Source: Verrucomicrobia bacterium UBA1183 (lineage in GTDB: Bacteria > Verrucomicrobiota > Verrucomicrobiia > Opitutales > UBA9783). Taken from it: DNA of 62,396 nucleotides. Below the pieces are notes generated by a model that saw only the letters and a program-made list of their open reading frames with translations, had not been told where the DNA came from and searched no databases. The position numbers and the translations under genes are program-made. Where the stretch lies: the NCBI GenBank assembly GCA_002309885.1, contig DBYP01000012.1:1-62396 (forward strand). The letters run 5' to 3'. This document shows, piece after piece, positions 26,215 to 34,163 of this stretch; positions within the stretch are counted from its first letter, which is position 1, and each line of letters begins with the position of its first letter.

Positions 26215-29200
26215 ATGAAAATGATAAAAAGAATTGCAAGCATCTCTGCTTTTGTTGCGATGCCATTTATGTGGGGAGGATTAGAAGACCTTTTTAGACT
26301 TAGGGCTGGGAATGAAACTAACTGCTACAACGCTCTTCGTGAAAATCGAAACCCTGAAAAGTTTAGAATATTTATCCGCTCGAATTACTATTCTATTGAG
26401 CATACGCGAGACGATCAACTTCGGCAACGGTACTTGAAAGAAACCAATCCGGAAATTAAGAGAGTTATTGAATGGGAGTTAAATAGAAGACATATCCCTC
26501 TTCAAAATACCGTAGTACCTGCAGCACCGGCCAGATCAGCACAACAACCAGCAGCACCTGCGCCTGTAGCAACACCCGCTCCTCAGCCTAGACCTGGGGC
26601 CGTACAGAAACCCCAATCGGCTGCTAGACCAATATCACAACCAGCAACAGTGGTGAAGCAATCCACAGTCTCCCAGTCCAAACCTGCAGAAAAACCAAAA
26701 ACTGTAGCCTCTCAGCTCCAACTAGGACTAAGCATTCCTCCCCTAATCCCCTTAAACGTGATGAAGAGTAGTGTTTCAAAGACAGCGTGCGATAAGACAA
26801 TCGCAGATGCTGACAACGCTTTTAGCATCTTGCAAAAATCTACGCAAGATCTCAGAAGAACGTTGGAACAATTACGTCAATTATCTTCATTTATCCCATT
26901 ACTGGCTCCTACAGAAACGGACAAGCATTGCTTAGAGATTAATTGTTTGGAATCGGGGCCTTGCATACAATTCAAACTGAAAGATGAGATCCTTTTTACG
27001 TTTGATCCTGGGTGGTCGGATCCATTTGCCACAAAGAACATCTCTAATATTTGGGTCCTTGAGAAACGAGGGCCCGATTTTATTTTAACACATACGGATC
27101 GTTTGAGAATTCGTATATCTGCTAATAAAACTTTGATCATTGAAGGTGCAAAAGATGCATGGAATTTGAAGTCAAATGCCCCTATCTTTTTTAGAGGTGA
27201 TATTGAGGGTTCAGATTTTAACTTTGACTGCCCTAATTTGACGAACACAGGAACCTTGGCAGTAAAAAGGTTAAAAACTTCCGGTGAGTTTATTAATCAA
27301 GGCCCTTGCACATTGGTACAATTGAATGCAGGAGAATTTACCAATGAAGAAACTTTAACGTTGGATAATGAATCCGAAATTCCTTGCATTTTTTCGTTAG
27401 AGAATAGCTGTCATAATTTGGGGACCATTGTTTTTAAAAAGCCGAGTGAATTTGTTTGTAAATCGCTTTTTAATGAAGGAGACGTCAAATTCGAAACTTC
27501 TGCAAAAATAAGCTTATCGGAATACTTTGAAAACAGTGGAACTTTCGCTAGCAATTCGAAAGATTTAGTAAAGTTGCACCTTATAAAATTTCAAAATGAC
27601 GGGCAAATTGATTGTGAAAATTTATATTTAACTGGGAATCAACTTGTTAATAAGGGTACCTTAAACGGACAAGTTTTAGATGTTCAGATGAATGAAATTT
27701 TGAACCAAGCAACGTTACAATCAGAAAAACGTTTATCGCTGTCGGGTTCCGTAACGAACGATGTTACAGCGTCTCTGTTTGGAGGTGAAAAATTAATCCT
27801 TACACCCAAGCAAACACCTTTTGTTAACCTAGGTCGATTGTCCAGTAACGAAGAAATAGAAATTACAACACCAACTTTTCATAACAAAGGGGTAATTTAT
27901 ATTCCATCGACACAACAAGCTTGTCTTTCTTTAAAAGGCACCTGCGAATTTCTAAACCTTAATAAAATCGAAATCGGTGAATGTAGGTGGGATAATCCTA
28001 ATTTAACTTTACAAAACGTGGGCTCCTTATCGGCATTTTCGATGGATGGGGCTATAGCGGCAATAACAAATTCGGGGCTATTAAGGATAACCGAGTGCGC
28101 TCTGAGAGTACCCAAAATAGAAAATTGCGAAAAAGCTAAGCTACAGGTCGACCAAACAGGTATATTTGAAAGTAAAACGGTTACAAATGCAGGAGAATTC
28201 GTAGCTGAAAACGGGCAACTTAATATAACAGCGGATCTTTTTCAAAATACAGCAGAAAGTATTACGGGTGCTAAACAACTCAAGTTATCGCTTACACAAC
28301 CTTTACAGAACAAAGGTAAAATATTTGGACTTGGTGAATCGTATTTACAAGCTCCTACGATTGAAAATAGCGGGCAACTTGCTTCTGGGAATACAGAGCA
28401 ACCTCCCAGGAACGTATGTTTTTCTTGCCAAACAAAAACGTTTAAGAATTTTGGCTATTTAATCGCTGGGAATGCCCTATTAATTGAGGCAAAAGATCAA
28501 TTAGAACAAATTTGCAAAGCGACCACTTATGGGCATTTGATTTTAAAAGCGGATTGTTTCCTGTTAAATACTGAAGAAATAAACGGTCCAGGTAGCTTAA
28601 CGCTTGAGGGTACTTTAGTAGCTAATCAGAAGCCTTTAAAAGTTGGTGGTACTTTAACGATAGATAGCCATTCAAAATTTGTTAATCAACAACCGGTTGA
28701 GGGTGAAGAAGTAAGTCTTCGCTCTCGTGGAGAGATTGAGAATGAATCGAGCATTAAAGCGAATCAGTCTCTCAAGTTTACAGGTAAATCTTTAAAAAAT
28801 AGTGGCTTAGTTTTTTCGAACAAAGAGTTAATTTTGCAAATGGTTAAGGGGATATTGAATACCCGAGATATCCATACGGAAGGAGACTGCGTCATAGAAG
28901 TTTCCGAAGGTAATTTTGTAAATACCGGTGGTAGATTGTTTGCTAATGGCTTCTTAATGTTTCGCTTATTTGATTTGGAAAATAGCTACGGAATGATTAA
29001 TTCGGGAGGAGATTTAACCATAGATGCCAGAAATCTCTTAAATCGACGAGGAAAGTTCGTATTTCATAAAGGGAACACACAACCCTCGGTCATAGGATAT
29101 GATACCAGATGTTATTACCAAGGCGATTATGAAACCGAAACAACGGGTCCGGCACTTTTGTTAAGCGGTCGGAATTTATCGGTTAATTGTAATCATTTAC

Positions 29201-33426: not shown

Positions 33427-34163
33427 GTTATATGTATGAACCTGATATCGAAAAGGTTCAACTGAGTTTTTCCTCTTATGATGGGAAATTGTGCCTTCCT
33501 TGGTATTATCACGGTTTTGGTTTAATAGAAATTCCCTTTAGCCCTTGGAAAGGGAGTGAATTGTTTTGCACTTACGACGCGGATTACGTGAGAGATTTAG
33601 AGGAAGATATAAAAGGGAATATGAAGGTATACAAGGAAAAAAAATTGAGATGTTACTTAGAAAGTATAGAAACATGTAAAAATATGTTAAGGACTTTTAA
33701 GAAGAAATTTGGTCCAATAATTTCAGGAAAAGCTCGGAAGTGGTGGGATAACAGAATAAAAGCTTTAAACGAACAACATATAGGTGATAAAGTTTGCGAG
33801 GACTTTGCAGATTATTTCAAAAATGGTGAAGAAGAAGGTATGACTTCCCTTATTCATATCCCAAGAATACGGACCTACGCTATTTTAAATAAAAAAAAGT
33901 ATGGTGGGTGGACTGCGATAGACTATTGCCCATTTTGTGGAGCGAAATTGCCGGAACGTATGGATGGAGTTTTAACAAAAATTTTACAGAAAGAATATTA
34001 CTTAAATTCCCATGAGGATTTCAAAAAAGCGCCTCACGAGTTCTGGACCGATGAATGGTGGAAAAAACGTCATTTAGATGATCCAAAAGTTTTAGCCGAG
34101 TGGGCTAAGAGAATTCCTAATTTGATAACTAAACCAGTATATAATCCTCCAATGAATCCATAA
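33420..34163 (+). CDS. putative cognate immunity protein
   Basis: 247-aa ORF whose ATG overlaps the toxin stop (ATGGTAG). It has no signal peptide and contains DYCPFCGAKLPE. The assignment is purely positional. Confidence 0.5.
   Translation: MVGYMYEPDIEKVQLSFSSYDGKLCLPWYYHGFGLIEIPFSPWKGSELFCTYDADYVRDLEEDIKGNMKVYKEKKLRCYLESIETCKNMLRTFKKKFGPIISGKARKWWDNRIKALNEQHIGDKVCEDFADYFKNGEEEGMTSLIHIPRIRTYAILNKKKYGGWTAIDYCPFCGAKLPERMDGVLTKILQKEYYLNSHEDFKKAPHEFWTDEWWKKRHLDDPKVLAEWAKRIPNLITKPVYNPPMNP

What the first reader, a model, noticed from the sequence alone, without database searches (positions are those of the whole stretch)
26215..34163. Polymorphic-toxin locus: a ~2400-aa beta-helical exoprotein with a PT-TG pre-toxin module but no recognisable secretion partner
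Seen in sequence:
- The ORF has a Sec-type signal peptide and a Pro/Ala-rich linker.
- It then has more than 1800 aa of ~20-residue repeats with a recurring [FLI]xNxG unit (EFINQG, FENSG, FQNDG, FHNKG, FVNTG, FLNTG, IVNYGG), like FhaB/CdiA shafts.
- Next comes IDFIPGVANVRAGVELITGHDYITGEDVSRWAALTSFIPG (32929-33057), followed by a ~120-aa tip.
- A 247-aa ORF overlaps the stop codon (ATGGTAG), in the immunity position.

Established knowledge: the DF[IV]P.VG..+...E..TG.D..TGE pattern is the pre-toxin TG (PT-TG) module. It precedes toxin tips in polymorphic toxins such as the Bacillus LXG proteins. CdiA-type shafts normally use a VENN junction, an N-terminal TPS domain and a TpsB partner.

Inference: I see no N-terminal TPS motifs, no TpsB/CdiB, and no Rhs, LXG, T6SS or T7SS marker anywhere in the 62 kb. 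The surrounding genome looks host-associated (T3SS, OTU, kinase). The combination of shaft and junction, and the export route, therefore look non-standard. This is the best candidate in the window for an undescribed delivery system.
Basis: partly seen in the sequence, partly recalled or inferred. Interest (0 to 1): 0.85.

Follow-up and report, generated by a model that had tools for sequence, protein, structure and literature searches.

The report
Filamentous polymorphic toxin lacking its usual exporter
An uncultured bacterium of the PVC group (the Planctomycetes-Verrucomicrobia-Chlamydiae superphylum) carries an intact toxin-and-antidote locus built like the filamentous contact-dependent toxins (CdiA/FhaB) of other bacteria, but it and its nearest relatives lack the secretion domain and the partner pore those toxins normally need, so how it leaves the cell is unknown.

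Summary
ORF 26143-33426 (2427 aa) is intact and under purifying selection (dN/dS about 0.12). It has a significant PT-TG module, a Fil_haemagg_2 hit and an enriched 20-residue xNxG repeat. An immunity-type ORF (DUF6980) overlaps its stop codon.

- A degraded orphan PT-TG and tip cassette (34178-34994), cut by an IS200 element.
- A 537-nt in-frame insertion that gives this allele a new start codon, signal peptide and Pro/Ala linker.
- Three co-operonic secreted coiled-coil genes that are conserved in the homologous loci.

Two homologues are about 89% identical up to PT-TG and then carry different tips, which is the defining behaviour of a polymorphic toxin.

No TPS domain was found with Pfam, a custom TPS profile or hhalign. 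No ShlB/POTRA gene lies in the 62 kb window or near any of six TPS-less relatives. Two TPS-bearing loci from the same searches, one of which demonstrably shares the core, each have one adjacent.

PT-TG combined with FHA repeats is already catalogued, and the xNxG repeat covers about 600 aa, not 1800. The whole genome could not be searched, so the export route is unresolved.

Verdict: a new variant of a known kind, of moderate interest.

The parts
24453..25208 (+). Secreted coiled-coil paralogue 1. The probable true start is the internal Met of MLKGSFMLGVLVSL. It has a variable N-terminal part and a C-terminal coiled coil of about 120 aa that is conserved across the paralogues.
   Evidence: The ORF and its translation are. 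It has no Pfam or NCBIfam family, only generic coiled-coil hits. It is homologous to the genes directly upstream of the toxin in L001 and L002.
25289..25945 (+). Secreted coiled-coil paralogue 2. It has a signal-peptide-like N-terminus (MLRRSLVLGVLISLNCLVFG) and shares its C-terminal coiled coil with paralogue 1.
   Evidence: A 353-nt stretch is 94% identical to paralogue 1.
25989..26153 (+). Remnant (C-terminal ~54 aa) of the third, divergent coiled-coil paralogue, which is complete in L001 and L002.
   Evidence: Window 25999-26191 matches L001 9857-10049 at 87% identity. The translation is compared with L001_9361 and L002_9320.
26143..33426 (+). Polymorphic toxin ORF of 2427 aa. It is intact and under purifying selection.
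   Evidence: dN/dS is 0.11-0.13 over 2127 shared codons against L001 and L002. The homologues P0001 and P0002 are 88-89% identical.
26192..26728 (+). In-frame 537-nt insertion absent from the homologues. It brings an SD-like AGGAAAGGA, the ATG at 26215, a new hydrophobic signal sequence (MKMIKRIASISAFVAMPFMW), a domain of about 75 aa with no family assignment, and a Pro/Ala-rich linker.
   Evidence: The protein comparison is and the DNA comparison. The insert has no Pfam hit at E<=10 and no copy elsewhere in the window or the loci. The same allele appears in fragment P0006.
26728..27237 (+). Lineage-specific N-terminal region (aa 196-365). It comprises the rest of the ancestral signal sequence, a predicted helix of about 35 residues, a Cys-containing linker and the start of the beta-rich region.
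   Evidence: In a scan of 1.84 billion representative proteins, nothing matched query aa 1-250 except near-identical sequences. There was no TPS hit with Pfam at E<=10, a custom TPS profile or hhalign, which gave probability 0.3%. The secondary structure comes only from a low-confidence model with pLDDT 32. dN/dS is 0.11-0.15.
27238..29022 (+). FHA-1-like beta-helical repeats of about 20 residues (aa 366-960) carrying the [FLIVM]xNxG motif.
   Evidence: Seventeen of the 21 motifs fall here, spaced about 19-20 residues or multiples of that. Fil_haemagg and TIGR01731 give sub-threshold hits at aa 951-971. Weak repeat-type matches occur to TPS-bearing proteins.
28576..32367 (+). Core of about 1260 aa (aa 812-2075) shared with CdiA/FhaB-like proteins. 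It includes the FHA-2 region, where Fil_haemagg_2 matches aa 1784-1909 (nt 31492-31869).
   Evidence: Single long alignments were obtained to the TPS-less proteins P0007 (244 bits), P0010 (242), P0016 (190) and P0022 (149), and to the TPS-bearing P0013 (133 bits; Q 815-1898 against P0013 352-1391).
32917..33105 (+). PT-TG pre-toxin module (aa 2259-2321). It marks the recombination boundary between the constant and variable parts.
   Evidence: PF14449 matches at E=1.6e-11. Identity to P0001 and to the orphan cassette ends at nt 33105.
33109..33423 (+). Variable C-terminal tip (aa 2323-2427, about 105 aa), the presumed toxin domain. It has no family assignment.
   Evidence: It diverges completely from the tips of P0001 and P0002. 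Only two homologues were found among 5.8 billion proteins: P0003 (55% identical) and the fragment P0004. It has no Pfam hit and no PDB sequence hit. The AF2 model has a core pLDDT of about 75, with two short helices followed by four strands and a helix. Foldseek against PDB gave nothing significant; the best match was CdiA-CT of E. cloacae at E=3.
33420..34163 (+). Immunity-position ORF of 247 aa. Its C-terminal part is a DUF6980 domain with a CPFCG motif.
   Evidence: PF22400 matches at E=4.8e-7 and 30.3 bits against a cutoff of 27. The ORF overlaps the toxin stop codon. The ORFs in the same position in L001 and L002 share the motifs CPFCGAKLP and EFxxDxWWKxR.
34178..34994 (+). Orphan cassette: a copy of the last ~145 constant residues including PT-TG, followed by a second tip of the type carried by P0001. 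It is frameshifted near 34905, truncated at its 3' end, and has no immunity gene after it.
   Evidence: PT-TG matches at E=4e-13 in ORF 34239..34925. Window 34178-34610 is 86% identical to 32673-33105. Window 34187-34994 matches L001 15997-16820 at 85%. The frameshift is visible in the ORF translations.
34990..35563 (+). IS200-type element with a Y1 transposase ORF at 35080..35508. It truncates the orphan cassette.
   Evidence: Y1_Tnp (PF01797) matches at E=2.3e-29. The end sequences of the element are repeated at 6936-7155 in the window.

Best explanation
This is a functional polymorphic toxin/immunity locus of the CdiA/FhaB superfamily in an uncultured PVC-superphylum bacterium. It belongs to a small lineage that has lost the TPS secretion domain and the linked TpsB pore.

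Proposed mechanism:
1. The protein enters the periplasm through Sec, using an N-terminal hydrophobic signal. In this allele that signal has been replaced by a captured 5' gene segment. This step is inferred.
2. The protein crosses or is anchored at the outer membrane by a factor not encoded next to it: an unlinked Omp85-type barrel, the T2SS encoded 10 kb away, or the three co-operonic secreted coiled-coil proteins acting as tether or chaperone for the N-terminal helix. This step is inferred and unresolved.
3. The ~20-residue xNxG repeats and the conserved core form a filament. This is inferred from homology to FHA-type proteins.
4. The FHA-2 region and the PT-TG module mediate delivery or release of a ~105-aa C-terminal toxin of a new family. 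The secondary-structure order of its model would fit a small nuclease-like alpha+beta fold, but this is a weak inference.
5. The overlapping DUF6980 gene protects the producer. This is inferred from position and from conservation across the loci.
6. New tip and immunity pairs are installed by recombination at the PT-TG region, displacing the old tip downstream as an orphan. This is shown by the comparison of alleles and the orphan cassette.
For: - The ORF is intact and dN/dS is 0.11-0.13 in every constant segment, including the N-terminal region.
- PT-TG and Fil_haemagg_2 score above their Pfam cutoffs, and the repeat motif is about 7-fold enriched.
- P0001 and P0002 are 88-89% identical up to nt 33105 and unrelated after it.
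- An orphan PT-TG cassette carries the P0001-type tip.
- DUF6980-type ORFs follow the toxin in all three loci.
- The core aa 812-2075 aligns in one piece with CdiA-like proteins.
- No TPS was detected by three methods, whereas 53 of 61 distant hits have a clear N-terminal TPS.
- There is no ShlB/POTRA gene in the window or in L001, L002/L003, L086/L087, L088, L089 or L090. Two TPS-bearing loci recovered by the same searches, L091 (whose toxin P0013 shares the core) and L005 (only weakly related), each have one adjacent.
- The three coiled-coil genes and the toxin form a conserved block inside otherwise different flanks.
- A T2SS operon is present in the window.
- N-terminal hydrophobic segments are present in the family and in three of the four TPS-less relatives.
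Against: - The rest of the genome was not available, so an unlinked tpsB cannot be excluded.
- The family alignment is shallow (three to four sequences about 89% identical), so a very divergent TPS-like fold could escape profile methods. The AF2 model of aa 196-760 failed (pLDDT 32).
- No tool for signal-peptide prediction was available, and neither N-terminus has a clean AXA cleavage site.
- The toxin activity is unassigned: Foldseek gave nothing significant, and hhalign did not relate the two tip types even though their immunity proteins share DUF6980.
- The coiled-coil genes have no detectable homologue next to the distant TPS-less relatives, so their role is conjecture.
- No expression data were available.
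Confidence: 0.65

Rival explanations
1. It is an ordinary two-partner-secretion CdiA/TpsA. The N-terminal region would be a highly diverged TPS domain, and the cognate TpsB would be encoded elsewhere in the genome.
For: - The core is homologous to that of a TPS-bearing protein (P0013).
- 53 of 61 distant hits are TPS proteins.
- A long beta-helix is most easily exported unfolded through an Omp85-type pore (established knowledge of TPS systems).
- The whole genome was not searched.
Against: - No TPS signal was found with Pfam at E<=10, a 51-sequence TPS profile or hhalign, which gave probability 0.3%.
- The stretch between the signal sequence and the first repeats is predicted as a helix plus coil, not the TPS beta-helix cap, though the model is low-confidence.
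- All seven TPS-less loci lack a neighbouring ShlB gene, whereas both TPS-bearing loci (L091, L005) have one adjacent.
Confidence: 0.2
2. It is a host-directed adhesin or effector of a host-associated bacterium rather than an interbacterial weapon. The filament would bind host surfaces and the tip would act on eukaryotic targets, with the downstream gene protecting the producer.
For: - The organism encodes a T3SS gate protein, a eukaryote-like protein kinase and a Fic protein.
- The TPS-less relatives sit in contigs rich in ankyrin and LRR genes.
- PMC3482391 describes polymorphic-toxin-like effectors in endosymbionts.
Against: - An immunity-type gene is present, and tips and immunity genes turn over between near-identical strains. 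PMC3482391 takes this as the mark of conflict between conspecifics; host-directed versions usually lack immunity genes.
- An orphan cassette is present, which also fits that pattern.
Confidence: 0.1
3. This allele is a decaying relic. The insertion into the signal sequence, the loss of the third coiled-coil gene and the surrounding IS elements would have inactivated export in this genome.
For: - The insertion interrupts the ancestral hydrophobic segment.
- Paralogue 3 is reduced to 54 codons.
- Four IS-type transposase genes lie within 15 kb.
- The orphan cassette is frameshifted and truncated.
Against: - 7.3 kb of reading frame remains open.
- The insertion is in frame and supplies its own SD-like sequence, ATG and hydrophobic signal.
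- The same allele is seen in a second assembly, as P0006.
- dN/dS of this allele against the others is as low as between the others.
Confidence: 0.05

Closest known systems
CdiA/CdiB/CdiI contact-dependent inhibition systems and FhaB-type TpsA proteins (type Vb secretion)
   Same: - FHA-type ~20-residue repeats and an FHA-2 region (PF13332).
- A long core alignable with a TPS-bearing family member.
- A pre-toxin junction followed by a small variable tip.
- An immunity gene immediately downstream, and orphan tip cassettes.
   Different: - No TPS domain and no adjacent cdiB/tpsB.
- The junction is PT-TG rather than VENN/DUF637.
- The N-terminus is a signal sequence plus a lineage-specific region.
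- The host is a PVC-superphylum bacterium, a group not listed for T5SS polymorphic toxins in Table 1 of PMC3482391.
Sec-dependent polymorphic toxins with lineage-specific N-terminal domains (Neisseria MafB with upstream MafA; Amoebophilus APD1/APD2; Microscilla-N), as described in PMC3482391
   Same: - A signal sequence followed by a conserved N-terminal region restricted to a narrow lineage.
- A polymorphic C-terminus.
- Conserved upstream genes encoding secreted proteins that could act as anchors.
- Occurrence in host-associated bacteria.
   Different: - Those toxins have no filamentous-haemagglutinin shaft or FHA-2 region; FilH repeats are listed only under T5SS in that paper's Table 1.
- The upstream genes here are three coiled-coil paralogues with no similarity to MafA.
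PT-TG-containing polymorphic toxins (LXG/WXG T7SS toxins, VgrG-linked toxins and FHA-repeat toxins) surveyed in PMC13483458
   Same: A PT-TG module sits directly before the variable toxin. That survey lists co-occurrence with FHA repeats of CDI systems.
   Different: The paper's main text does not say whether its FHA-repeat architectures carry TPS domains, and its supplementary tables were not available. No LXG, WXG or VgrG domain is present here.

Membership tests
Polymorphic toxin system (sensu Zhang/Aravind, PMC3482391) | A constant N-terminal and central part with alternative, unrelated C-terminal tips among close homologues | tested here: met
   P0001 and P0002 are 88-89% identical up to Q aa ~2322, and the tips are unrelated after that.
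Polymorphic toxin system (sensu Zhang/Aravind, PMC3482391) | An immunity gene immediately downstream of the toxin gene | tested here: inconclusive
   The position and translational coupling are met, and a related DUF6980 ORF occupies the same position in L001 and L002. Neutralising activity was not tested, and DUF6980 has no described function; no paper mentions it.
Polymorphic toxin system (sensu Zhang/Aravind, PMC3482391) | Standalone (orphan) tip cassettes sharing the pre-toxin region | tested here: met
   Window 34178-34994 contains PT-TG at E=4e-13 and is 86% identical to 32673-33105. Its tip is of the P0001 type.
Polymorphic toxin system (sensu Zhang/Aravind, PMC3482391) | A pre-toxin domain at the junction | tested here: met
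   PF14449 (PT-TG) scores 44.4 bits against a cutoff of 23.5.
CdiA / TpsA (type Vb, two-partner secretion) | An N-terminal TPS secretion domain (PF05860) | tested here: not met
   There was no hit at E<=10 on aa 196-686. A TPS profile built from 51 N-terminal domains matches only generic beta-helix positions 100-248, at 4.7 bits. hhalign gave probability 0.3%. The single NPNL motif at aa 618 lies inside the repeats. One caveat is that the family alignment is shallow.
CdiA / TpsA (type Vb, two-partner secretion) | A TpsB/CdiB (ShlB plus POTRA) gene adjacent to the toxin gene | tested here: not met
   No such gene was found among the window ORFs scanned or within 10 kb in L001, L002 and L003. 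The TPS-bearing loci L005 and L091 each have one adjacent.
CdiA / TpsA (type Vb, two-partner secretion) | A TpsB anywhere in the genome | not testable with these tools
   Only this 62 kb contig was held. The genome is not among the GTDB representatives, where the best SctV match is 66% identical.
CdiA / TpsA (type Vb, two-partner secretion) | FHA-1 repeats (PF05594 / TIGR01731) | tested here: inconclusive
   PF05594 scores 18.5 bits against a cutoff of 21.5, and TIGR01731 scores 16.5 against 18. However, the motif is 7-fold enriched with ~20-residue spacing, and repeat-type matches occur to TPS proteins.
CdiA / TpsA (type Vb, two-partner secretion) | An FHA-2 region (PF13332) | tested here: met
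   PF13332 scores 25.2 bits against a cutoff of 22 at aa 1784-1909. The core aligns with the FHA-2-containing proteins P0010 and P0013.
CdiA / TpsA (type Vb, two-partner secretion) | A VENN / DUF637 pre-toxin junction | tested here: not met
   There is no VENN, VDNN or ELYN string and no PF04830 hit. PT-TG takes this position instead.
T7SS LXG/WXG, T6SS (PAAR/VgrG/Hcp) or Rhs-delivered toxins | The signature N-terminal or repeat domains of those routes | tested here: not met
   The Pfam scan of the whole protein returned only PT-TG, Fil_haemagg_2, Fil_haemagg and one chance hit. No such domains appeared in the window ORFs scanned.
Sec-dependent polymorphic toxins with a lineage-specific N-terminal domain (MafB-like class) | A signal sequence, an N-terminal region confined to a narrow lineage, and a conserved upstream accessory gene | tested here: inconclusive
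   A hydrophobic N-terminus is present. The N-terminal region has no relative among 1.84 billion representatives. The upstream coiled-coil genes are conserved in all three loci. This class is defined by architecture, not by homology, and cleavage and export were not tested.

The most novel reading that the evidence does not exclude
A lineage of CdiA-like filamentous toxins in PVC and other host-associated bacteria is exported and displayed without a TpsB partner. The route would be new for this protein class: Sec, followed by either the T2SS or a housekeeping barrel. In this clade the three co-operonic secreted coiled-coil proteins would bind the toxin's N-terminal helix and act as tether or chaperone.
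Probability: 0.3. Interest if true: 0.75.

Novelty: new variant of a known kind. Interest (0 to 1): 0.5.

Why it matters
Filamentous haemagglutinin-type toxins are the textbook cargo of two-partner secretion, in which the TPS domain and its TpsB pore are considered obligatory. This locus and four full-length distant relatives keep the shaft, the FHA-2 region and the polymorphic tip but have neither the TPS domain nor a linked pore. They are under purifying selection and exchange tips between strains. This poses a concrete question: how does a 260-kDa beta-helical protein cross an outer membrane without TpsB? The loci give defined sequences with which to test it. The locus also extends CDI-like systems with immunity genes to an uncultured PVC bacterium that carries a T3SS, and it adds an unassigned toxin tip paired with a DUF6980 immunity candidate.

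Tried and rejected
- AF2 of aa 196-760 with a three-sequence alignment failed (pLDDT 32), so there is no fold evidence for the N-terminus.
- PDB sequence searches of both halves of the protein and of the tip profile found nothing meaningful.
- Foldseek of the tip model against PDB gave no match at E<=0.001.
- The word-indexed search with a five-sequence core profile returned only five proteins and missed the known relatives.
With Q plus P0010 it found no relatives.
- A metagenome-contig scan with the N-terminal alignment found none.
- I tested whether the coiled-coil protein upstream of the distant relative P0010 is homologous to the window's coiled-coil family. It is not: it scores below shuffled controls.
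- I tested whether the two tip types are remote homologues, since their immunity proteins share DUF6980. hhalign gave probability 0.1%.
- Promoter and terminator scans of 23700-35700 were at shuffle level.
- No inverted repeats were found at the IS200 ends.
- Literature searches for DUF6980 and for the assembly accessions returned nothing.
- I rejected an inverse-autotransporter or N-terminal barrel reading. Only ~110 residues, predicted as helix plus coil, separate the ancestral signal sequence from the first predicted beta strands, and no further hydrophobic segments exist.
- I rejected T3SS export. The ancestral N-terminus is a classical hydrophobic signal, and the protein carries a Sec-type architecture.

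Full report
**1. What is in the sequence**

The region holds one uninterrupted ORF, 26143..33426 (2427 aa).

Pfam results for the whole protein:
- PT-TG (PF14449) at aa 2259-2321, E=1.6e-11, 44.4 bits against a cutoff of 23.5.
- Fil_haemagg_2 (PF13332) at aa 1784-1909, 25.2 bits against a cutoff of 22.
- Fil_haemagg (PF05594) is below its threshold, as is NCBIfam TIGR01731.

The motif [FLIVM]xNxG occurs 21 times against 2.9 +/- 1.7 in shuffles. Seventeen of these lie in aa 366-951, spaced about 19-20 residues or multiples of that. The repeat shaft therefore covers about 600 aa, not more than 1800.

The 247-aa ORF 33420..34163 overlaps the toxin stop within ATGGTAG. It matches DUF6980 (PF22400, E=4.8e-7, above cutoff).

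**2. It behaves as a polymorphic toxin**

The 5.8-billion-protein search found only two relatives, P0001 and P0002, from ENA metagenomes. They are 88-89% identical to the window protein from aa ~190 to just past PT-TG and then carry different C-termini. At the DNA level the similarity stops at nt 33105.

Fifteen bases after the immunity-position ORF, at 34178, a copy of the last ~433 nt of the constant part begins. It is 86% identical to 32673-33105 and has its own PT-TG hit at E=4e-13. It is followed by a tip of the type carried by P0001. This orphan is frameshifted near 34905 and truncated by an IS200-type element, whose Y1 transposase ORF is 35080..35508. No immunity gene follows it.

In all three loci the ORF after the toxin shares the motifs CPFCGAKLP and EFxxDxWWKxR.

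The constant 2127 codons have dN/dS of 0.11-0.13 in all three pairwise comparisons, and the N-terminal region gives 0.11-0.15. The gene is therefore a maintained coding sequence, not a relic.

**3. The N-terminus**

The homologues begin MKNSIRNITLGLIIGILPLIPLNG..., a basic and then hydrophobic signal-type segment, and continue directly into what is aa ~198 of the window protein. In the window, nt 26192-26728 is an in-frame insertion inside that hydrophobic segment. It carries the following:
- an SD-like AGGAAAGGA;
- the ATG at 26215;
- a new hydrophobic segment (MKMIKRIASISAFVAMPFMW);
- about 75 residues with no family match;
- the Pro/Ala-rich linker.

The insert has no Pfam hit at E<=10 and no other copy in the window or the loci. 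The same allele occurs in fragment P0006.

**4. Search for a TPS domain**

- Pfam gave no TPS hit on the whole protein at E<=1 or on aa 196-686 at E<=10.
- An exhaustive phmmer scan of aa 190-1389 against 1.84 billion representatives gave only 63 hits. None aligned to the first ~250 query residues except near-identical fragments.
- I built a TPS profile locally from those hits. Of the 61 distant hits, 53 have a strong N-terminal TPS domain. The window protein and its close relatives match only the generic beta-helix half of the profile, at about 5 bits.
- hhalign of the family N-terminus against the TPS alignment gave probability 0.3%.
- The AF2 model of aa 196-760 was unusable (pLDDT 32).

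**5. Relatives and their neighbours**

The best distant hits are P0007, P0010, P0016 and P0022. They lack TPS, and three of them start with a hydrophobic signal. They align with window aa ~812-2075 in one or two long stretches, at 149-244 bits. The TPS-bearing P0013 also aligns, with Q 815-1898 against P0013 352-1391 at 133 bits. The core is thus shared between TPS-bearing and TPS-less proteins.

Gene neighbourhoods:
- P0013 (locus L091) has a ShlB/POTRA gene immediately upstream.
- L005, the locus of the weakly related P0069, is another TPS system and also has one adjacent.
- The TPS-less loci have none within up to 10 kb: L001, L002/L003, L086/L087, L088, L089 and L090. The scanned ORFs of the 62 kb window have none either.
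- The TPS-less relatives are themselves polymorphic toxins. They are followed by small ORFs or known immunity families: Imm49 in L089, and an Ntox35 tip with an orphan Ntox35 and CdiI_ImmP in L090.
- They lie in low-GC contigs with ankyrin and LRR genes.

**6. Conserved partners**

In L001 and L002/L003 three small genes sit directly upstream of the toxin on the same strand, with gaps of 13-58 nt in L001 and L002. Each encodes a signal-type N-terminus, a variable region and a conserved coiled-coil C-terminus.

The window has two complete copies (24453..25208 and 25289..25945) and a 54-codon remnant of the third. The flanks outside this block differ between the loci.

These genes have no family assignment. 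They have no detectable homologue next to the distant relatives, although P0010 is also preceded by a secreted coiled-coil protein. A tether or chaperone role is my inference, by analogy with MafA/MafB (PMC3482391).

**7. The tip**

The tip is aa 2323-2427. It has only two relatives, P0003 and the fragment P0004, which sits on a different scaffold. It has no Pfam hit and no PDB sequence hit.

The AF2 model has mean pLDDT 62 and a core of about 75. It shows two short helices, four strands and a C-terminal helix. Foldseek found nothing significant; the top match, CdiA-CT of E. cloacae, has E=3. The activity is unassigned. A small nuclease-like alpha+beta fold is a guess from the order of secondary-structure elements only.

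**8. Organism and context**

The window encodes two secretion-related features:
- SctV (57210..59300, FHIPEP).
- A T2SS operon on the minus strand at 44165..54895, with GspF, GspE, GspD, GspG and pseudopilins.

The closest SctV proteins among the GTDB species representatives are:

| Taxon of the MAG | Identity |
|---|---|
| Puniceicoccales | 66% |
| Chthoniobacterales | 63% |
| Lentisphaeria | 57% |
| Chlamydiales | 50% |

The organism is therefore an unrepresented member of the PVC superphylum, probably Verrucomicrobiota. One homologue fragment is labelled only "bacterium" at NCBI. IS-type transposase genes flank the locus.

**9. Comparison with what is known**

The architecture of repeats, FHA-2 core, pre-toxin, tip, immunity gene and orphan is that of CdiA. 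Three defining features fail: the TPS domain, the linked TpsB and the VENN/DUF637 junction.

PT-TG next to FHA repeats has been reported (PMC13483458). Sec-dependent polymorphic toxins with lineage-specific N-termini and upstream accessory genes are described (PMC3482391). That paper lists FilH repeats only under T5SS and does not list PVC phyla for T5SS toxins.

I therefore classify the locus as a new variant of a known kind.

**10. Verdict**

The polymorphic-toxin reading is well supported. The claim of an undescribed delivery system is open. The absence of TPS and of a linked TpsB is consistent across the clade and contrasts with the TPS-bearing loci. It still rests on local context and shallow alignments, and no alternative transporter was identified.

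Scores:
- Interest: 0.5.
- Most novel reading not excluded: TpsB-independent export of a CdiA-like filament. Probability about 0.3; interest 0.75 if true.

Noticed in passing
window 44165-54895 (- strand): A complete-looking type II secretion operon is present: GspF (44165..45376), GspE (45389..47107), GspD secretin (47663..49891), GspG (54437..54895) and further N-methyl pseudopilins (52704..53531, 53949..54434).
   Followed up: partly
window 57210-62003 (- strand): A T3SS export-gate protein SctV (FHIPEP, E=1.5e-231) lies next to a eukaryote-like Ser/Thr kinase (60345..62003). The closest SctV among GTDB representatives is only 66% identical (Puniceicoccales MAG), so the organism is an unrepresented PVC-superphylum lineage.
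   Followed up: partly
window 8340-10599 (+ strand): An EcoRI-type adenine methyltransferase (E=3e-141) overlaps a GmrSD_N plus HNH endonuclease gene. This looks like a restriction or modification-dependent defence pair.
   Followed up: no
window 14999-15829 (+ strand): A protein with Fic_N and Fic domains, which could be a toxin or an effector. No partner was examined.
   Followed up: no
window 20439-23725, 62186-62396 and 6936-7155: Several IS remnants are present: rve integrase, DDE_Tnp_4 and IS1595 genes upstream of the locus. The first 211 nt around the IS1595 start (22995-23205) recur at the very end of the contig, at 89% identity. The IS200 end sequences recur near 6936-7155. The contig probably ends in a repeat.
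   Followed up: partly
P0005 and P0068 (fragments of the toxin family): Both fragments carry a precomputed Pfam label, PF27415.1, that is not in the local Pfam copy and did not appear for the window protein. By overlap it should lie within aa ~385-1230. I could not find out what the family is.
   Followed up: no
L090 10001-21578; L089 10001-27115; L091 5259-16277: The distant relatives have their own polymorphic arrays. L090 has an Ntox35 tip, repeated 225-aa ORFs, an orphan Ntox35 and CdiI_ImmP. L089 has Imm49 and a second giant ORF. L091 has a 1084-aa orphan with Fil_haemagg_2.
   Followed up: partly
L001 5658-7178 and 19150-20685: Two large proteins flanking the homologous locus have C-terminal motifs resembling OTU-type cysteine peptidases (DDNNFFYAILQIL and DGNCGVWALMQAL), read by eye. 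Neither was tested.
   Followed up: no
L004 5917-16286: P0070 is a 2201-aa repeat protein with no Pfam hit and no N-terminal hydrophobic segment. It was retrieved only by the core profile. It sits beside an IcmW (Dot/Icm chaperone) gene, which suggests a T4BSS organism. Direct phmmer with the window protein found no similarity.
   Followed up: partly
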